Translations under genes and position numbers: made by a program
Part shown: in pieces, positions 53,301 through 64,000 of the stretch
How the letters are laid out: each line of letters opens with the position of its first letter
Position numbering within the stretch: position 1 is the first letter of the stretch
Source: Auanema rhodensis
Taxonomy: Eukaryota; Animalia; Nematoda
Assembly (NCBI GenBank): GCA_964057225.1
Contig: OZ059896.1
Coordinates: 7,316,001-7,380,000, forward strand
DNA length: 64,000 nucleotides
Reading direction: 5' to 3'
The notes under the pieces: generated by a model
Databases searched by the model: none
The model's input: only the letters and a program-made list of their open reading frames with translations
What the model was told of the DNA's origin: nothing

Positions 53301-54150
53301 AACGATTTATTCAGCCAGTGGTATCGAGCCTTTGTGCTGCATGCAGATTGGGCGTTGGGAATTCCCGATTTTAGAATAATACCTTTAGAAGACCAAGTTG
53401 GTTTCTGTTGTTCTTTGACGAATCTATTTATTAACTTATAGACACAACTATTCAAACAAAATTTTATGGCATTCGGCTGGATAACTTATTCATATAAATG
53501 CTATGATAACAATTTAGAAGAAGTTGGGATACCAATGGGAAATGGATCCTACATTCCGTACAATCAGGAAGATTTGAGATTAATAGAACCTAAGTAAGAA
53601 CAAAGTTGTATATAACGTTAATCGTATCATTTGAGGTGGGTGAATACTTATGGACCAGTATGCCAAAAACTCATTGAAATGACGGTAAAGCCAATGAAGG
53701 AGATGAAAATGAACTTGGAAGAGTATTGCCTTCTAAAGGCTATTGCTTTATTTCAACAAGGTAATTCGTCAAAATATATTTTTCATAAATGTCTGAAATT
53801 TCCAAGAATTTCTAGATTGTCCATTATCGACTACTGGCTTGAACATTTGTAAAAAAGTTAGCGAACGGCTGTTGGAATCCTTAGCAAAGTCAATAGCAAG
53901 AAATCATCCCAATCTTTCTCATATTCAGCAATCCATGAGAGCTATGAAAATATTACTACTTATTCCTTGTTTTAATGTACGTTTCGTCATAATTATTATC
54001 TTCTAAGTTTTAATATTTCAGCATATTGGAACTTTTGAATCATCGATGATTCTTACATTATCAGCATCTGATAGGAATGAACTAAGTGGGGTACCCCTCG
54101 AACTGATGAGTTCTCATACTGCACATTTGGCTAATCATCAAAGTCATTAA
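50398..54150 (+). CDS. Nematode nuclear hormone receptor (supplementary/HNF4-derived class)
   Basis: C4 zinc fingers CVGC...HYGAPSCHGCKAFFRRSV...YVCSADNLCNI...RNRCRACRLRNCL.GGM; ligand-binding-domain motifs ADWALGIPDF..IPLEDQ and EEYCLLKAIALF. The first coding exon 50398-50595 joins 51970 in phase 0. Confidence 0.9.
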
Positions 54151-54368
54151 GTGTATATTGATTATATTGTGATATTCTCTCCCTGTTCCATTGTATTCGG
54201 GTAACTTAGATTATGATATTCATATCGTTGATATACATGAACATTAATCAGTTGTTTGTTGAAAGAGTTTAATCATGAGATCATAATAAATATGAATAAA
54301 ACGGAATTTAAAACTTGAACCTGGGTTCAAAATCAGTGAAATTGTTAATTTAAATTATCCGTAAGAAA

Positions 54369-54815
54369 CTATTCTCTTCTTGATTCCTGGAACTCACGCC
54401 TCAGGTAATCAGCCAAACTCCTGGACGAATCAACAATCTTCAAATAGGCAGACTCTGCCTTCAAAATCCATGTCCTACATTAATACGAAAACAAATCAAA
54501 ACCTGGAGTATAGCTTGATCCTGTTTAAGAACAATATCCTTCTCTCTTCTATACCTCGCATCAACTTCATTTCTACGCCTCTCTAGTTCCTATTTTTCAA
54601 TTATATTGCACTATTGTATTAACAGGCATACCGAAATTTGTTCTTCTAATGAAGTTCTCTCACGTTCCAAAGTAACCAAATTTTGGTCAGTAATTTTCTT
54701 TTCCTGTTTCAATTTTTCAAGGTCTAAACTCGACACAAGAATAAGCTTAATCAAAAAACCACTCACAACTCACTATCTCATCAGTATGAATCTCGGAACC
54801 AACACGTGATGACAT
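54369..54815 (-). CDS. ssna-1: SSNA1/NA14/DIP13 microtubule-binding coiled-coil protein, 105 aa (exons 54815-54767, 54723-54632, 54589-54503, 54458-54369)
   Basis: Translation: MSSRVGSEIHTDEIVSYLEKLKQEKKITDQNLVTLERERTSLEEQISELERRRNEVDARYRREKDIVLKQDQAILQAESAYLKIVDSSRSLADYLRREFQESRRE*. AESAYLKIVDSS matches the SSNA1 signature (TEAAYLKILESS); 318 nt in total. Confidence 0.88.
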
Positions 54816-54948
54816 CTCTCCTGTACTATTAAACATACAGAAAAGAACTACTGCTTTACATAGTATTTTGGTATTAACCTTCGAAATTAACAGTAAAATA
54901 TTATGTATGTAACATTTATGCCACATAACAAACAAATCAACAACGTTT

Positions 54949-55514
54949 TTACTTCTTTCCGGCTTGAACCTTGGACTTGGCAGTACCACGAACCTTCTTT
55001 TGACGGTTCTTTCTTTCCTTGCGCTGCTTGCGTCCTCCTCTCTCTACCTTGGTACCGAGTCCAAGCTAAACCAAAAATAAGTAAATGAATTTTAATATAA
55101 AAACGTACGCGGACGAGTCTGAAGTTTGGCTCAAACTTCTTAGCGTAATCAAGGGTGTCGTAGATCAGGGCGAATCCCTTAGTCTTTCCACCTCCAATTT
55201 GGGACTTGAATCCGAAGGGGACAACCAAGTCAGAGGCTACCTTGTAGAGCTTGGAAATTTTCTCCTTGATTTCAGTCTTTGGGACAGTGGCGCGTCCGGG
55301 GTGGAGCACCTCGACTACCTACAGAACAGAATAAAATAATTGAGACATTCGCAATGGTTAAATAACTAAAACAAAAAAAAAATTTTTCAAAATACAAACC
55401 ATTTGCTTTCTGTAAAGAAGGCGGTTGGTAAGGACCTTTCTCGTTCTGATAGTAACGACGTCGCCCTATAATAATACAGTTAGAAAAAGAAATACTAAAG
55501 AAAAGGCTTACCAT
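54949..55514 (-). CDS. rps-24: 40S ribosomal protein S24 (eS24)
   Basis: ATG-only first coding exon, then [22 protein letters not shown] / [14 protein letters not shown]...[13 protein letters not shown] / [19 protein letters not shown]. Confidence 0.97.
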
Positions 55515-56790
55515 GGTTGGAGCTTCACAGGAAACCCTAAAAAATAAAAATATTATTCAAGAAATAGGCTAACTCGCGAAAAAACCGTAATAACTAATGA
55601 ATATTTTAAACAAAATAATACACACACTCTTCATGCTTTAGTTGGTCTACTTTTCATGAAATATATACTCAAAAATCAAAGAAACTTCAAAAATAAAAAT
55701 TATTTTAATTTAGGAAAAGAGAAAACGGTGAACATATCTCTATTTTTCAGAAAACCCTTTCATTTGCGTCGAATACTCCGCTAGGGTCTCGCGGCGAATT
55801 ATTTTGCACCCTATTCAGACCTTTATTCGCATGGCGCGATACATTGGAAGACGGACAGTTTGAATTTTCAGACAAATTTATAATTTAAAAAATGCGGTCT
55901 GTAGTATGAAATATAGGGTTACAACAAGAATAATTCCTTGGTTTTTAGTAAATATTTTTGAGTATTATATGTATATATATTTACATATGCGTAAGTGTGT
56001 TTGCATGTGTATTGTGTCAATTTATATTCACTTATTTCCAAATTATTCAAGATTTGAACGAGTTAAAAAAGTTTGAAAGTATATGCTTTGTATTGCGAAG
56101 AAGTGTAAAGCAACGTTTGAAGTATTTGGTGTGATAAAAGTTACTTGGTTTTTTTATTTAGTTTGGAAGTAAAATAAGATGCCGTTCAATCTGGTCTTGA
56201 GATAAGGCCAGTAAGACAATCGTTTACAGTATTTTCATAACATGCCCTTTTAAAATTAAGAGAGATCAGATGTTCATTGGCGCTCCTCCCATCAGTTAGA
56301 CACTGGGCAAAAAAAAGAAACCACGATTTCTCGGTTAGCACGTGGTGTGGGGCAGTGTCACTACCTTTCCTCTTTGAGACAGCCGTCCGGTCTACGATGA
56401 GATGAAACTACGTTTATCTTTCAAAATCGTTAACAGCTCTTGTTACGTTTTATCAATTAGTTTATCACAGTGTGTATAAGGTTTCAATTATGGAAAAGGC
56501 TAAAAGGCTATATAAAACCTTTCGAAAACTTAGATAGCATCATTTTCTGTCAAATCATGAGTTTTCTCTAATCAACATCGTGTCTTAAACGCGCGCGTAT
56601 TTTTCAAGTTTTGTCGTGTACCTTCCTAACTCTTATTTCCACTCTGCATTCTATATTTTGTTTCTCTCGTTTTAAGTAAAGAAATAAGGCCAAGGTAAGA
56701 TTACTGCTGATTATGAAACTTTTCTTTCTCTGTATCTTCAGTGTTGTTTGTCTTTTGCCTGTTTTCTAGTTGATATATTTAACATTTCAG

Positions 56791-59700
56791 ATGACATTTT
56801 TGAGGGCTCCTCTACATATTCAGCGTCAGCTGACAAGAAATTGTCAGGCCTTTCATGGAAGAGGAACCCCTACAATTGGTATTAGAAGAGAAACTATTAA
56901 TGCTTGGGAGCGAAGAGCTCCTCTTGCTCCTGTACATGTTAAAAAATTGACCAAGGCTGGAGTTAGAATCCTAATTCAGCCAAGTAATCGTAGGGCTTAT
57001 CCAATTCAGGTATGATGCTGAAAGTAGCTAACATATGACTATCTTTCCAGGATTATGTTTCTGCTGGGGCTACTGTTAGGGAAGATTTATCAGATGCTCA
57101 TCTTATCATTTCTGTGAAACAGGTTGATATCGTCATATTATTTTTTCTATTGTTTTCCTAGGTGCCTGTTGACCAGCTGATTCCAAATAAGGCATATGCT
57201 TTCTTTTCGCATACTATTAAGGCTCAGCAAGATAACATGGAAATGCTTGACACTATTCTTCAAAGAGTTAAGATATTCAAATGAACAAAAAATATAACGA
57301 TTTTTTTAAAGAAAATTCGTCTTATTGATTATGAGAAAATTGTTGATAAGCGGGGCAAACGTTTGGTAATGTTTGGAAAGTGGGCTGGTAATGCAGGCTT
57401 TATCGATATCCTTCATGGTTTAGGATTAAGGTTCATTACTCTTTAGGGTAGTGTATTATTTGATAAATTTTAGACTTCTTGCCCTTGGTCATCATACTCC
57501 TTTCTTGCATATGGGTTTGGCCCACAATTACAGTGATTCTCACATGGCTATTAATGCTTTGCGTGACATTGGATATGAGATTGCTTTAGATAAGATGCCA
57601 AGGTTTTAAAACAAGTTTTTTAAATAATGGTTATGTTATATTAGATCTCTTGGACCTCTTGTCTTCGTTTTCACTGGCTCCGGAAATGTTTCCAAAGGTG
57701 CTCAAGAGCTGTTTCAACATCTTCCCCATGAGTTCGTTGATGTAGCAACTTTACCCAAGGTAGCTCAAAAAGGACGTCAGTTATGGATTTAACTTCTAAT
57801 TAAAATAAATACTTTAGAACTCAATAAGGTGTACGGTTGTGTAGTTACTCGTGCTGATCATATGGTTCCTAAAAATGGTATGTTGCTTTCGCTTTTGGAA
57901 ATGTATTTGATAAATTTCAGGAGGTGTATTTAATAAGGAAGAATTTGAAGCTCATCCTGAGAATTATACTTCCAAATTTGCCACAGAGGTTATTTAGATT
58001 TGAATGTATAATAAACGTTCAGCCTGTTTAGATTGCTCCATATGCGTCTGTAATTATCAATGGAGTCTATTGGGATGCTAGAACACCACGTTTGCTGACT
58101 ATTCCTGATGCTAAAAAACTGCTGACTCCTGTCCATAAGGTTTTGCATCTTATGTCTATTGTATTGTTATCTTTTTTTAGTACGATATGCCAGGATGCCC
58201 CTCTTTGCCTCATCGTCTTATCGCCCTTTGTGATATTTCTGCTGATCCAGGAGGTTCTGTCGAATTCATGACTGATTGCACCACTATTGACAAACCATTT
58301 ATGATCTATGATGCTGACTTCAATACCAGCTCAGAACGGTTAATACTGATTAAGACTGAACTTCTGATTTCATGTTTTATAGATTTGACACTCCTAATGG
58401 ATGCCTTGTATGCAGTATTGATAACATGCCTGCCCAGATGCCAATTGAGGCTACGGAGCAATTTGGAGACCTTCTCTATCCTTATGTGATGGATATGGTA
58501 TGAAATCAACAGTATCGTCAGTTAACAAATTGAAAAATTCAGCTCAATTGTGCTGCTGATATTCCATTCGACCGTACTGCTTGTCGGGATGAAGTCAAGG
58601 GTGCTATTATTACTAGTGATGGAGCACTTACTGATAACTACAAATACATTGCTGATTTGAGAAAATCAAAAGCTCTGTAAGTATATCAAGTTTTACGATA
58701 GAGGGAGGGGCTAGCTTTTTTTGCTAGTTGTTGTTCACTTTTTTTGCGCCTTACGTTTTTGTTTATGACGCTATTGGAGCGCCTGTAGTTCACTTTCGTG
58801 TTTTCTTTAAATATTATCTTTCTTGTTTCTCCAGTGCGTCCACTCATAAATCGCGGGTAATGGGATCAGATGAGAAGAAAGTTCTGCTTTTGGGAGCTGG
58901 AATGGTTAGCGGACCGTTCGCTGATTTTTATGCCAAACAACAAAAGGTTTTTATACAAAGATATTTAAAAAATATTGTTTATGTTCTAGGTCAGTCTAAC
59001 CGTTGCTACCGAAACCCGTCAAGATGGACAAAAGTTAATGGTTGGAGATAATATCTCTTCAGTTGTTGTTGATGTTAACCGTGAGCATGATGTGCTTGAG
59101 AAACTTATCGGAGAACATGACTTATGTGTTTCTCTACTACCATTCACATATCATCCAATGGTTGCTAAGCTTTGTATCAAGAACAAAACGAATATGGTGA
59201 CCAGTAGCTACGTTTCCCCTGAACTCCAAGAGCTTGATCAAGCGTATATTTTAATGTTTTTTATGCTTTAATTTAAAATCTTATTGTAGCGCAAAAGATG
59301 CTGAGGTCACAATTATGAATGAATCTGGGCTAGATCCTGGAATTGATCATATGCTTGCAATGGAATGCTTTGATTCTGTTCGCGAACACGGAGGAAGAGT
59401 AGGGGAATGTTAAAAACCCTAAACAAATATTATTCTAGGTTACTTCATTTGTATCGTTCTGTGGTGGACTTCCTGCACCTGAATCTTCCGATAATCCATT
59501 AAGATACAAGTTCAGCTGGAGTCCAAAGGGAGTTTTAACAGCTCTTCTGAATCCTGCTAAATATCTTCAAGATGGAAAGGTGTAGTGCAAACATATTTTG
59601 GCGGAAATTTATACAACTTTTTAAGATTGTTGAAATTGGGGCTGGTAAAGTTGTTGATCACCTTTATCCCATTGATTTCATGCCTGGATTTAACTTAATT

Positions 59701-60626
59701 GGATATGCTAACCGAGATTCCACTAAATATTCCGATATTTATGGATTGGGATCAGAATGTAGAACTCTTCTTCGTGGAACTTTACGTTACGATGTATTAT
59801 AATCAAAATCCTAAAAGCTTATCGTTTCTGCCTATTTAGGGATTTGTGGAAACTGTTAAGGCTTTAGATTCTGTTGGGCTTCTCAGCACTCAGCCTTCTG
59901 AAGTATTCAATTCTGTTCAAGGACCCGATTTGACTTGGGTATTTTTTAAATTTTGTATTTTACTATTGTTTTAATTCAGAAACAACTGATGGCTTCCCTT
60001 CTCAATCAGAGACTTGACATCTTCCCAGACTCTTTAAAAAATATTGCCGCTGAAAGAATTGGAAAACAAAACATGATTGGTTTCAATTCATTAAAGGAAT
60101 TAGGCTTGTTCAGCGATGTAGTTGTTGATAGACAAGGATGTGCTCTCGATACTCTAGCACCTTATTTAGCAAAGGTATGCAATCATATATTTGCCATTAA
60201 TTATAATTTATTTGTTAAGGTTCTTGCTTTCAAAGAAAGAGAGCGTGATTTAGTTGTTCTTAATCATGATGTTGGAGTTCAACTTCAGAGTATGTACTTC
60301 AGATTTTTTAGTCTGCAAATCTTTTGTTTTTAGGTGGAGACCGTGAACGTCATAGAATTAGTCTTGTAGCATATGGAGAAGAAAATGGCTTTTCTGCCAT
60401 GTCTAAAACAGTAGGATATACCTGCGCCATCATATCCAATATGGTGCTTCAAGGTTAGTTTTTCAGATTTTAAGTTCAGTGTAAACTAATCACACTTATT
60501 TGTTCAGGAGAAATTCAACGGCCAGGAGTTCTTCGTCCAGTTGAAAAAGCTGTTTACCGATCCGCTTTGAAGAGACTTGAAGACTTTGGAATTTACGCTA
60601 CCAGAACCGTTCTTCCATCGCAATAG
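56791..60626 (+). CDS. aass-1: Bifunctional alpha-aminoadipic semialdehyde synthase (lysine-ketoglutarate reductase / saccharopine dehydrogenase), mitochondrial
   Basis: [52 protein letters not shown] (LKR); [57 protein letters not shown] (SDH); Arg-rich, acid-free N-terminal presequence. Confidence 0.97.
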
Positions 60627-60997
60627 AGTTGAGATTAATAATGCATGACAAAATGTAAATCTATTGTTCAATATATTTATATTGTAGCTATATAAGTAGT
60701 TATGGTGACATACTAAGCAATTTATGTTTAAAGCTATTAAAATAGTAGCTAGCATAATTTTGAATTCTCAGGAAAAAAAATTAAGTAACCTGGGTTGTTA
60801 TCTTATTTGGTAATATTACTGTTTTCTCAAAAATACGGTTTTTCTTTGTTTTTTCTGTCGTACAGAAGTAATAAATGTTTAGACATTATTGAATTTCTTT
60901 TTTTGTGTACATTCGATGTGATCTCTTAAACTGAGGGGCAGCTGTCTTAAAGCTTTTCACGAAATCAATCGATATTATACGCTGCTCTTATCTACAA

Positions 60998-61705
60998 ATG
61001 GCTTTTCCTCCTACTGCTGGTAGAGGAGTTACTCAAGTTATAGAAAGATGTGAAAACGCCAAAACATCTGGATTTTTAGGTGAGTGTCTCCAAAAAAAAA
61101 GTTATTGTATATTTTTGTAGATTTATCCAACTGCTCGTTGATGTATATTGCTGATGCTATATACTTAGTGCTGAAAGGCTATGAAATTAATAAGGTATGT
61201 TGTTGATATGATTGTTGTTTCATAACTATCATTTTAAAGATCAGCGTCAGACAAAACAGTTTGAAAAAATTCCCCAGAAAGTTTCTTGAAAAATTCCCTA
61301 ATGCAGCAAGTTAGTAACTCCATAGATTATTTTCCACTGTTGAATACTGATTGCAGTTTTTAACATGGAAGGTAACGAAATCTCTGAATTACCTGATGAG
61401 CTGAGTAATTGGTCTGAGATGAAAGGACTTAATATGGCTCAAAATAAAATAGAAAAATTTCCTAACAGTATATACAACTTCAGCAAGTTACTGTTTCTGG
61501 ACATTTCCGGTAACCAAATTGAAGGTATATATTTTTTTTGTAATTTAAAAATATATTTCATTCAGATATTGATGTTGAACGGTTATATGAAGCCTGTCCT
61601 AATCTGACTCAACTTAATGTGTCGGGAAATTCTTTAAAAGAAGAAACAAAAATAGCTCTGAATGAGTCTGCCAAGAAGCCAGAAAAGTTAAAAATTATTA
61701 TATGA
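60998..61705 (+). CDS. Small leucine-rich-repeat protein, LRRC20-like
   Basis: AGRGVTQVIERCENAKTSGFLDLSNCSLMYIADAIYLVL... followed by LxxLxLxxNxL-type repeats; five exons with consistent phases. Confidence 0.82.
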
Positions 61706-61925
61706 AAATTAATTGTGTAACTTTATTTATGTAAGTGAATCCACATCATTTTTTAAAGAAAGACTTATAATATTGCTTATTAAAAAATATTCTGTAATGA
61801 GTAATAAATATATTCCAAAGAATACTGTAATTGATTTGAATGAGACTAAGTTTCCTTTTATTCAACAATTTAATTTGAATTTGAATTTTAAATGCTATTA
61901 GTTGACATAGGGTTTTCACGTAAAT

Positions 61926-61933
61926 TCACGTGA
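61926..61933. promoter_or_regulatory. TCACGTGA extended E-box (HLH-30/TFEB-type) ~50 nt upstream of the VTD-like gene
   Basis: TTCACGTGAA palindrome flanked by TCACGTAA and CATGTG variants within 61915-61940. Confidence 0.35.
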
Positions 61934-61979
61934 ACATGTGGAAGCCCATCTGTAAATTATTTTACTCTCATTATTTTGA

Positions 61980-63446
61980 ATGTGTTTGACTAACAATGTT
62001 GAACGTTTTTTTCCTGAAATATATGCTAAATTAGAACAGGTAGAATTCCAAACAAACTTTTCTTCTTTTTTTTTAACCCCTAGTACTTATTCTTCTTTAT
62101 ATTTTATTATTGATTGTATTTCTGTGATTAGCTATTTATTAATTGAAGAACGGAGTTATTGTATGGCGCTTACCAATAGAAATATCTCAAAGTCGGTTTG
62201 GAGGACGTGAAGATCCGTCAAATGCCTGTACTCTTATTGTTATAAAATTAGCTGAACTAATTCATAGAAATAATATAAGGCTCAGTCATCACAATTGTTT
62301 ATTTATGGTATGAATATCATTTGATTTCTCAGTACATTTACTTATCGAACTACTAATATTAAGATTTTCAGAGAACAATCGAGAATCGAAGCTATTTAAT
62401 CCAACAAAACAGAATTGCCTCCGATTATAACAATGAAACATCGGTGGTAATTTAATTGTTTATCAGAGATGATGCTTACATTACTCATATTATAGAGATG
62501 CTGCCCTATCCTGTTGACCAGTTTCATTGAAGCGATTGTCAATGGAAATAAGAGTCATGAATCAGCTCTAAAGAAACGTATGAAATCCATTAGTTCGGGA
62601 CTTGTTGATCCTTATTTCACAATACCTGATGCTCTTGTCGCTGTAAACAATCCCTTTAGAGTAACTGAAAAAACATTACTCAACTTTATTTTCCTTCTTT
62701 ATAGGAGATCGATTTTTCATCTGTAGTGGGTCCTATTAGCCAAAACCTACCTAGTTACTTACGTTGTATTATTCATCAGTAAGATTTTATTTATATATTA
62801 GAAATTACAAATGTCATCTCAGTCCGAAACTTGAGTACGAAGAAAAGATATACATCATTATGATTGCTTTCCAAAGATCAGTACTGTTTGTGTATGAACG
62901 TTCCTCTGATACTATTACTTTACTAGACACACATTTGCATGGAATTGGGCATGGTAGTCTTAATTAATATTTATGTTAACATATAATTATGAATATATCC
63001 TTATAGGTGGTCTTATTGCTTCGTGCCATTTAAACAATTTACGTTTTTTTGGACAATGGGTTTCTTCAAACATTTTCCAAGAATCGTTATATCTTTCTCG
63101 CAGAGAAAAGTATCAGGTAATCAGCTAATAGTTAAAGGTATTTATACCTAATTAAAAGCTCCAGGTAGTATACGAGCTCTCCGTTTTAAATTTTTGTGGC
63201 GATGTGAACTTATCCGACTGCTCTCCTTCGCCATCTCGTATTGGTCTATGCTCAAAGTTTTCAATTTTTCCCGAATTGGATTCTTCAAGCGAGTCGTCTT
63301 CATATGAATCCTCTCCCGAAAAGCAATACTTTGACTTTAACACGGGCTCATTTACTCCGGTATGTAGGAGGAAACGGCCCATAGAAAATGCTAAAACGGC
63401 AACATCGACGTACGAGTTCAAGTCGGAAAAAAGAATGAAATTCTAG
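61980..63446 (+). CDS. Uncharacterised protein with papain-like, herpes-tegument-type (VTD-like) Cys/Asp-x-His motifs; 8 exons
   Basis: Spliced: MCLTNNVERFFPEIYAKLEQ/NGVIVWRLPIEISQSRFGGREDPSNACTLIVIKLAE.../..FIEAIVNGNKSH..YFTIPDAL../..IYIIMIAFQRSVLFVY..TITLLDTHLHGIGH/GGLIASC../VVYELSVLNF...RRKRP...KRMKF*. GT-AG introns preserve the frame. The gene is well supported; the function is inferred. Confidence 0.75.
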
Positions 63447-63606
63447 GTTATTATCTTTCAATATAAAATTCAGGAATGCATCTGTGTTTGTTTCATATTT
63501 TGTTACAAAAATAATTGTATGAAAAATCATTATTACAATAAAAAAATGATAAAACGTATTAGATTATTATCACAGAGTTCTTAGTTAGTTCTAATATTAA
63601 AATTAA

Positions 63607-64000
63607 CTAAAAAGGTCGAACACTTTGTGAGTCTAGCTTTACCATCTCATCGAACTTCGCTGTGAAACCATATGTTTTCCAAGTTAGCCCAAGGGAAATT
63701 CTTTGAGTGATTGGTCCGACGTAAGGGGAAATCCATTGAAGAATAGCGCGATATATGAATAAATAATGAAGAGAAGATCCCACACCGCATTTACGTTGAA
63801 GTCGAACAAATGTGGAAGCGAGTAAAACTACGTTATCGTCAATAGGAGTACCTGAAATTAAATTTCTTAGATTGGTATACAAAAAACATGAATATACCAC
63901 GTAAGAAGTGGCATAAAACCGCTTCAATAGCAACGAGCGTTCCACTACGTGTACAACCATCTAGACATTGCACAATAGTTGGTGAATTCGATAACCGAGC
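63607..64000 (-). CDS. 3' end of a degenerate protein-tyrosine-phosphatase-domain gene (runs off the window; exons >64000-63898 and 63851-63607)
   Basis: PTIVQCLDGCTRSGTLVAIE (P-loop) and VRLQRKCGVGSSLHYLFIYRAIL (Q-loop region); stop at 63607. Confidence 0.85.

What the first reader, a model, noticed from the sequence alone, without database searches (positions are those of the whole stretch)
61980..63446. Intron-rich host gene encoding a herpesvirus-tegument-type (VTD-like) cysteine protease
Seen after splicing: Gln exactly 13 residues before Cys (SQSRFGGREDPSNAC, Cys codon 62227-62229) followed by a hydrophobic helix; a helix FIEAIVNGNKSH; hydrophobic strands ending in LLDTH (Asp 62926, His 62932); then GGLI, a last strand YELSVL, a Ser-rich tail and a bipartite-NLS-like end (RRKRP...KRMKF). 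Established: herpesviral large-tegument deubiquitinases use a Gln ~13 residues before the catalytic Cys and an unusual Asp-x-His motif, and related viral-tegument-like DUBs (VTDs) occur in some eukaryotes, often in transposons. Inference: a domesticated, possibly nuclear, deubiquitinase or UBL protease outside the standard USP/UCH/OTU/MJD classes. Seven introns and no flanking transposon features argue for a long-resident host gene.
Basis: partly seen in the sequence, partly recalled or inferred. Interest (0 to 1): 0.8.

Follow-up and report, generated by a model that had tools for sequence, protein, structure and literature searches.

The report
Nematode herpes-tegument-type deubiquitinase gene
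This is a real, spliced roundworm gene of an already described enzyme family related to a herpesvirus protein; it likely cuts ubiquitin chains, probably during sperm formation, so it is an ordinary new member of a known but still untested nematode group.

Summary
All seven introns appear as splice joints in transcript contigs of four runs (one study). They give one 351-aa frame with Gln34, Cys47, Asp213 and His215 at the stated codons. These residues are invariant in the homologs that cover them (28, 29, 30 and 30 of 30 aligned). The predicted fold of a 38%-identical homolog matches VTD and herpesviral M48 structures best. But this is known ground: the homologs include C. elegans ZC317.6, C14C11.1 and C18G1.9, three of the five stand-alone nematode VTD genes named by Erven et al. 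2022. The host is Auanema-like (clade V), inside the published range. No nematode member has a published assay in the library I searched, so activity, K48 preference and a male-germline role are inferred from Drosophila ms(3)76Ca. Small additions: a second invariant His (D-x-H-x-H), loss of an acidic residue kept in 30 of 30 homologs, and intact homologs in clade IV nematodes, which the paper says lack VTDs. The nuclear signal is weak and transposon ancestry was not tested. This scan noted VTD-like genes before on other DNA. Verdict: new member of a known kind.

The parts
61980..62039 (+). Exon 1 (aa 1-20), N-terminal leader; ATG at 61980 inferred
   Evidence: contigs cover 61984-62037 and join to exon 2
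62149..62307 (+). Exon 2 (aa 21-73): Trp26, Gln34 (62188-62190, predicted oxyanion hole), Cys47 (62227-62229, predicted nucleophile) and the following helix
   Evidence: 40 database hits with this exon alone
62372..62446 (+). Exon 3 (aa 74-98): variable insertion; the matching stretch is low-confidence loop in the homolog model
62496..62660 (+). Exon 4 (aa 99-153): long helix with invariant Gly115-Asn116; Asn114 (62541-62543) replaces Asp/Glu of 30 of 30 homologs; conserved F-T-I-P-x-A segment
62705..62778 (+). Exon 5 (aa 154-178): invariant Glu154, strand and helix
62823..62953 (+). Exon 6 (aa 178-222): strands with invariant Arg196 and the D-x-H-x-H motif, Asp213 (62926), His215 (62932), His217 (62938)
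   Evidence: aligns to the D-P-H motif of 8ADB
63007..63116 (+). Exon 7 (aa 222-258): invariant Gly222, strand and helix
63165..63446 (+). Exon 8 (aa 259-351, stop 63444-63446): last core strand with conserved Glu262, then a Ser-rich tail with two basic clusters (from 63366 and 63429)
62040..63164 (+). Seven GT..AG introns: 62040-62148, 62308-62371, 62447-62495, 62661-62704, 62779-62822, 62954-63006, 63117-63164
63447..63474 (+). Start of the 3' UTR as far as contigs reach
   Evidence: table 8

Best explanation
The locus is a spliced, single-domain nematode gene of the invertebrate VTD (viral tegument-like deubiquitinase) subfamily, and its product is likely an active cysteine deubiquitinase that probably trims K48-type ubiquitin chains in the male germ line. 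Shown: the gene structure, the frame, the conserved Gln/Cys/Asp-x-His set, and homology to the C. elegans genes filed as VTDs. Predicted on a homolog: the papain-like VTD fold. Inferred from solved VTDs: the ubiquitin tail enters the cleft, His215 held by Asp213 activates Cys47, Gln34 stabilises the oxyanion, and the isopeptide bond after Gly76 is cut. Inferred from Drosophila ms(3)76Ca: K48 over K63/K11 preference, no NEDD8 or SUMO activity, and a role in spermatid differentiation, which would protect substrates from the proteasome or recycle ubiquitin. My odds: family membership 0.97, active on ubiquitin 0.8, K48 preference 0.6, male-germline role 0.6.
For: Splicing and frame. Exon 2 alone finds 40 proteins at E<=0.001 among 1.84 billion; 27 of the 40 were looked up and all 19 that carry an organism name are nematodes. 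The spliced model matches them over the whole domain (best 40% over 294 aa, Heterorhabditis) and matches C. elegans ZC317.6, C14C11.1 and C18G1.9 at 27-28%, E about 1e-27, named as VTDs in PMC9741609. Among 30 aligned homologs Gln is kept in 28 of 28 that cover it, Cys 29 of 29, Asp 30 of 30, His 30 of 30; the D-x-H lies outside the first search query. A 13-sequence profile finds one PDB sequence among 177,635 at E<=10, the VTD 8ADB (E 0.0093), with Cys and D-x-H aligned. AlphaFold2 model of homolog P0004 (pLDDT 82.7): all 6 Foldseek matches at E<=0.001 are VTDs or M48; VIA-align Z 17.3 (8ADD, rmsd 3.0, 192 aligned), 16.4 (2J7Q, 3.5, 199), 13.4 (8ADB, 3.8, 184), ahead of AvrPphB at 11.4. The model departs from only 3 of 73 conserved positions, like other lone homologs. 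Weak support for binding: P0004 with a ubiquitin scored 0.49 against a best control of 0.13 (runs agree in >=90% of contacts, partner pLDDT >=82); the mark was reached by 51 of 78 solved and 2 of 108 mismatched pairs, but at 0.60 or under by only 5 of the 78 and by all 4 mismatches that passed, and like complexes are solved. Drosophila member: K48-preferring, no NEDD8/SUMO probe reaction (PMC9741609); male-specific sterile alleles (PMC3567030). C. elegans C09H10.9 is a spermatogenesis-specific FBF target (PMC6325917).
Against: No nematode VTD assay was found; VTD linkage preference varies by subfamily (K48, K6, K63). The fold and the complex are of a homolog (37.5% identity over 285 aa), not of this protein, and the Cys-His distance could not be measured. 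The PDB profile hit is marginal: E 0.0093, 0.16 and 0.5 with three alignments, and in the third an unrelated repeat protein ranked first. No member reaches Pfam PF04843 (0 of 37). This copy has Asn114 where 30 of 30 homologs have Asp/Glu and Gln195 where 26 of 30 have Glu. Three database models (P0024, P0031, P0036) lack the D-x-H segment and were left out of the count; I read them as incomplete gene models. A direct sequence link to the Drosophila protein was not made here. Sex-specific expression was not testable.
Confidence: 0.75

Rival explanations
1. An active VTD-fold protease with a different preference: another chain type (K6, K11, K63), NEDD8 or another ubiquitin-like modifier, with the second His and the lost acidic residues reshaping the site.
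For: Helitron VTDs also cleave NEDD8, and bacterial, fungal and protist VTDs are K6- or K63-specific (PMC9741609). His217 is invariant in 30 of 30 homologs but absent from the D-P-H-G of 8ADB. Asn114 and Gln195 depart from conserved acidic positions. UFSP and ATG4 also use D-x-H.
Against: The paper clusters nematode with insect VTDs (supplement text) and the insect enzyme prefers K48. UfSP structures score far lower (Z 6.3-6.6, rmsd 5.2-5.3) than VTDs. I could not map positions 114 or 195 onto the ubiquitin-binding acidic residues of solved VTDs.
Confidence: 0.16
2. A weakly active or non-catalytic ubiquitin-binding protein, like the insect iVTDs.
For: Inactive, testis-expressed VTDs exist in insects; this copy has a long branch (1.59) and three departures at conserved sites.
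Against: iVTDs lack active-site residues; here all four are present and invariant across the subfamily, and the number of departures is within the range of other homologs (0-13).
Confidence: 0.06
3. A piece of a Helitron or another mobile element, or a recent viral insertion, and not a resident host gene.
For: Most non-viral VTDs sit in Helitrons; the homolog model matches herpesviral and giant-virus proteins.
Against: Seven short introns of the same kind as those of the neighbours; flanked within 275 bp and about 70 bp by an LRR gene and a tyrosine-phosphatase-like gene; no long repeat brackets the gene; none of the 7 stop-free frames of 130 aa or more in the window looks transposon-like (six scanned, the seventh is rps-24); relatives across nematode clades.
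Confidence: 0.02

Closest known systems
Nematode stand-alone VTDs: C. elegans ZC317.6, C14C11.1, C18G1.9, C09H10.9, Y53F4B.36 (Erven et al. 2022, PMC9741609)
   Same: Single VTD domain, all catalytic residues, no transposon context; 27-28% identity to the three I retrieved, same Gln-Cys spacing of 13 and D-x-H-x-H.
   Different: In the tree it lies nearer Heterorhabditis, Ancylostoma and Pristionchus proteins than the ZC317.6 group, without starred support. C09H10.9 and Y53F4B.36 were not retrieved, so the C. elegans ortholog is undetermined. Asn114 in place of Asp/Glu.
Drosophila ms(3)76Ca / CG14101 (Dm-VTD)
   Same: Same invertebrate subfamily according to the paper; the ESM Atlas puts a homolog next to arthropod clusters (scores 0.94-0.96) of which 11-73% of members carry PF04843.
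Herpesviral large-tegument deubiquitinases (MCMV M48, PDB 2J7Q; UL36, BPLF1; Pfam PF04843) and zebrafish Helitron DrT1-VTD2 (8ADD)
   Same: Same predicted fold (Z 16.4 and 17.3), Cys plus D-x-H, upstream Gln.
   Different: Only 9-13% structural sequence identity; those are domains of very large viral or transposon proteins, this is a 351-aa spliced host gene; below Pfam detection.
Waddlia Wc-VTD1 (8ADB/8ADC)
   Same: Only PDB sequence hit of the first profile; fold Z 13.4, 21% identity.
   Different: K6-specific bacterial enzyme with D-P-H-G, no second His.

Membership tests
VTD deubiquitinases | Catalytic Cys followed far downstream by an invariant Asp-x-His motif | tested here: met
   Cys47, Asp213-x-His215; 29 of 29, 30 of 30, 30 of 30 homologs; aligned to the Cys and D-P-H of 8ADB
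VTD deubiquitinases | Conserved oxyanion Gln upstream of the Cys | tested here: met
   Gln34, 13 residues before Cys in all 28 homologs where the pattern was found. The conserved Gln of herpesviral enzymes is stated in PMC8123002; the spacing of 13 in M48 is recalled, not from a call.
VTD deubiquitinases | Papain-like alpha-beta-alpha fold superposable on M48 and DrT1-VTD2 | tested here: met
   On homolog P0004, not on the window protein: Z 17.3/16.4/13.4, Foldseek E 5.6e-7 to 1.5e-4
VTD deubiquitinases | Mirror-image triad geometry with Cys and His juxtaposed | not testable with these tools
   The structure tools return no coordinates or residue-level superposition
VTD deubiquitinases | Match to the Pfam herpes tegument model PF04843 | tested here: inconclusive
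   0 of 37 alignment members and 0 of 6 exons hit it; the published nematode member ZC317.6 was among the 37, so the model misses this subfamily. ESM Atlas neighbours carry it in 11-73% of members.
VTD deubiquitinases | Binds and cleaves ubiquitin | tested here: inconclusive
   Weak predicted-complex support on a homolog (0.49 against 0.13); cleavage needs an assay
Invertebrate (insect/nematode) VTD subfamily | Sequence homology to the named C. elegans members | tested here: met
   ZC317.6, C14C11.1, C18G1.9 at E about 1e-27
Invertebrate (insect/nematode) VTD subfamily | Single-domain gene outside a transposon | tested here: met
Invertebrate (insect/nematode) VTD subfamily | K48 preference | not testable with these tools
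   Shown only for the Drosophila protein
Invertebrate (insect/nematode) VTD subfamily | Male-germline expression | not testable with these tools
   Runs are unlabelled contigs; depth cannot rank expression
Insect inactive VTDs (iVTD) | Loss of one or more active-site residues | tested here: not met
   All four residues present
Helitron-encoded VTD | Domain inside a RepHel open reading frame | tested here: not met
   351-aa stand-alone transcript between host genes
UFSP/ATG4 (other D-x-H proteases) | Fold closest to UFSP or ATG4 | tested here: not met
   UfSP chains score Z 6.3-6.6 at rmsd 5.2-5.3 against 13-17 for VTDs

The most novel reading that the evidence does not exclude
Nematode VTDs are a mechanistically distinct branch: the second invariant His of D-x-H-x-H acts in catalysis or binds a metal, and the enzyme has its own chain or modifier preference. 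The family spans clades III, IV and V as an old sperm-differentiation deubiquitinase, and in this Auanema-like species it is a handle on how ubiquitin directs sperm cell remodelling.
Probability: 0.12. Interest if true: 0.55.

Novelty: new member of a known kind. Interest (0 to 1): 0.25.

Why it matters
VTDs were defined as a deubiquitinase class only in 2022, and the nematode branch rests on sequence prediction; I found no assay or mutant study of a nematode member. This gene adds a transcript-verified member from a free-living nematode, with no paralog in this window, that could be assayed. The analysis also corrects the published range (intact homologs in clade IV) and flags a subfamily-wide second His. 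None of this changes what VTDs are, so the interest is modest.

Tried and rejected
Word-index protein search with exon 2 found nothing (5 candidates, none at E<=0.01). Pfam on six exons and PDB sequence search with exon 2 gave no hit. P0035, a 4381-aa dockerin protein in the hit list, is a chance match: the matched stretch has no Cys. The VopV hit is a repeat artefact. No whole genome is held, so copy number and synteny could not be tested; within the window the profile finds no paralog. The homolog alignment was too divergent for locus scans of bacterial and viral contigs, so those collections are untested. I could not map the ubiquitin-tail-binding acidic pair of DrT1-VTD2 and Wc-VTD1 onto this protein: three profile alignments to 8ADB skipped that region, and the paper's Fig. 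1a alignment is an image I could not see. The run search listed no holder on record as RNA. Contig depths differ between runs but cannot rank expression, so nothing is concluded on sex bias. No contig bridges 61763-61983, which says nothing for or against an operon. No Rfam family in 54000-64000. An alternative acceptor at 62083 or 62131 for intron 1 was considered and dropped: both give stops, and the contigs use 62148. The tree does not place the protein in any starred clade, so orthology is left open.

Full report
Observation. I rebuilt the gene from the sequence. Eight exons between 61980 and 63446 join through seven GT..AG introns of 44-109 nt into a 351-aa frame. Four public runs of one study hold about 40-48% of the locus words. 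Laid on the window, one contig per run skips all seven introns at exactly these positions with no listed differing letters, and the intron interiors and upstream gap examined are uncovered. The library type is not on record, but such precise GT..AG joints are what spliced RNA gives. Only one of six frames of the spliced transcript is open. The ATG itself lies four bases upstream of the longest contig and is inferred.

Host and surroundings. Upstream on the same strand are a lysine-ketoglutarate reductase/saccharopine dehydrogenase gene ending at 60626 and a 177-aa leucine-rich-repeat gene at 60998-61705; downstream, convergent, is a tyrosine-phosphatase-like gene. One exon of the dehydrogenase is 92% identical to an Auanema protein and 80% or less to the other 15 hits, so the host is an Auanema-like rhabditid (Rhabditina), clade V in the usual scheme (recalled). 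No long repeat brackets the gene, and no transposon family was hit by the long frames or the frames flanking the gene.

Homologs. Exon 2 alone retrieved 40 proteins at E<=0.001 from 1.84 billion. I looked up 27; the 19 with an organism name are all nematodes. One long dockerin protein is a chance match. A profile of 13 of them returned 22 proteins, among them C. elegans ZC317.6, whose cluster also holds C14C11.1 and C18G1.9. The spliced model matches these at 27-28% and Heterorhabditis at 40% over 294 aa. In an alignment with 30 full-length or near-full-length homologs (short fragments and three models that lack the D-x-H segment were left out), Gln34 is kept in 28 of 28, Cys47 in 29 of 29, Asp213 and His215 in 30 of 30. 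Gln and Cys were part of the first query, so their conservation is partly by selection; the D-x-H was not. His217 is also invariant, as are Gly115, Asn116, Pro142, Ala144, Glu154, Arg196 and Gly222.

Fold and substrate. A spliced sequence cannot be handed to the folding tool, so I folded homolog P0004 (37.5% identity over 285 aa): pLDDT 82.7, pTM 0.81. All six Foldseek matches at E<=0.001 are VTDs or M48. Against 48,161 solved chains the top three are DrT1-VTD2 (Z 17.3), M48 (16.4) and Wc-VTD1 (13.4), followed by AvrPphB (11.4), the relative that the VTD paper also reports. By sequence, the first profile finds only Wc-VTD1 in the PDB (E 0.0093) with Cys and D-x-H in register; two other profiles scored it lower (0.16, 0.5). 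A predicted complex of P0004 with a ubiquitin taken from a viral contig gave weak support: 0.49 against a best control of 0.13, runs agreeing in at least 90% of contacts, partner pLDDT at least 82. The mark was reached by 51 of 78 solved and 2 of 108 mismatched pairs, but at 0.60 or under by only 5 of the 78 and by all 4 mismatches that passed; similar complexes are solved, so the pass may be from likeness.

How it likely works. By analogy with solved VTDs, whose Cys, Asp and His mutants are dead (PMC9741609), His215 positioned by Asp213 activates Cys47, which attacks the bond after the last Gly of ubiquitin; Gln34 would form the oxyanion hole, as the conserved Gln does in herpesviral enzymes (PMC8123002). 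The only assayed invertebrate member prefers K48 chains and ignores NEDD8 and SUMO probes, its loss blocks spermatid differentiation (PMC3567030), and one C. elegans member is a spermatogenesis-specific FBF target (PMC6325917). I therefore commit to a K48-preferring male-germline deubiquitinase at about 0.75 for the enzyme reading overall, with chain type and tissue as the softest steps. Against it: no nematode enzyme has been assayed in the papers I could find; specificity differs between VTD subfamilies; and this copy has Asn114 and Gln195 where homologs are acidic, at positions I could not map onto the ubiquitin interface. The basic tail may direct it to the nucleus, but the pattern is weak (9 of 24 homolog tails; 6.6% of shuffles).

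Comparison with what is known. Erven et al. 2022 describe exactly this kind of gene: single-domain, non-transposon VTDs, five in C. elegans, present in almost all clade III and V genomes. The finding is a new member of that group, inside the published range. Two details go slightly beyond the text I read. First, the paper says other nematode clades lack VTDs, yet Panagrolaimus, Panagrellus and Steinernema proteins carry the full Gln/Cys/D-x-H-x-H set and a Ditylenchus fragment matches over 172 aa; these are Tylenchina (Panagrolaimus not looked up), that is clade IV (recalled). Contamination or mislabelling of four independent entries seems unlikely but was not tested. Second, the D-x-H-x-H motif is subfamily-wide while Wc-VTD1 has D-P-H-G; the paper's alignment figure, which I could not see, may already show this.

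What I read. PMC9741609: abstract, parts 1-5 of 9 of the text, keyword passages, the text of supplement 1 and passages of supplement 3; figures and the source-data archive were not visible and may bear on the clade range and the second His. PMC6325917: one passage and section 23. PMC3567030, PMC8123002, PMC10643670: keyword passages only. Searches for later work: C. elegans gene names (3 papers), VTD + deubiquitinase + nematode from 2023 (0), Auanema + deubiquitin (0). Earlier notes of this scan describe VTD-like genes in other genomes and none near this locus; they are unchecked and not counted as support.

Verdict. New member of a known kind; interest 0.25.

Noticed in passing
proteins P0017, P0066, P0030, P0019: Clade IV nematodes (Panagrolaimus, Panagrellus, Steinernema; a Ditylenchus fragment) have VTD homologs, three with the complete catalytic set, although PMC9741609 says clades other than III and V lack them.
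   Followed up: partly
window 62926-62940: D-x-H-x-H: a second His (His217) is invariant in 30 of 30 nematode homologs but absent from Wc-VTD1; role unknown.
   Followed up: partly
protein P0001: The Heterorhabditis homolog is annotated as nucleoporin NUP35: a Nup35 RRM protein joined to a VTD domain, probably two adjacent genes merged into one model. No NUP35 match in this window.
   Followed up: partly
proteins P0061, P0068, P0069, P0053: Database names such as 'ACT domain-containing protein', 'Movement protein', 'FERM domain-containing protein' and 'Glutathione synthetase' on these VTD homologs are not backed by any Pfam hit for the two that were scanned (P0061, P0053) and look like automatic mislabels.
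   Followed up: partly
fold search of model m6b39526a91ae: Uncharacterised proteins of giant viruses (Yasminevirus, Catovirus, Tupanvirus, Indivirus) match the VTD fold at E 7e-5 to 2e-3; I did not see giant viruses mentioned in the parts of the VTD paper that I read.
   Followed up: no
window 56791-61705 and 61980-63446, + strand: The dehydrogenase, LRR and VTD genes lie head to tail with gaps of 371 and 274 bp between coding regions, a spacing compatible with a nematode operon; no spliced-leader evidence either way.
   Followed up: partly
window 63515-64000, - strand: A spliced tyrosine-phosphatase-like gene (PF00102, E 1.6e-6) whose active-site motif reads VQCLDGCTRSG, converging on the VTD gene with about 40 bp between the contig ends.
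   Followed up: partly
window 61915-61934: A short near-palindrome with two TCACGT cores about 50 bp upstream of the ATG, a possible promoter element.
   Followed up: no
window 54890-55318, - strand: Ribosomal protein S24e gene (PF01282, E 3e-26).
   Followed up: yes
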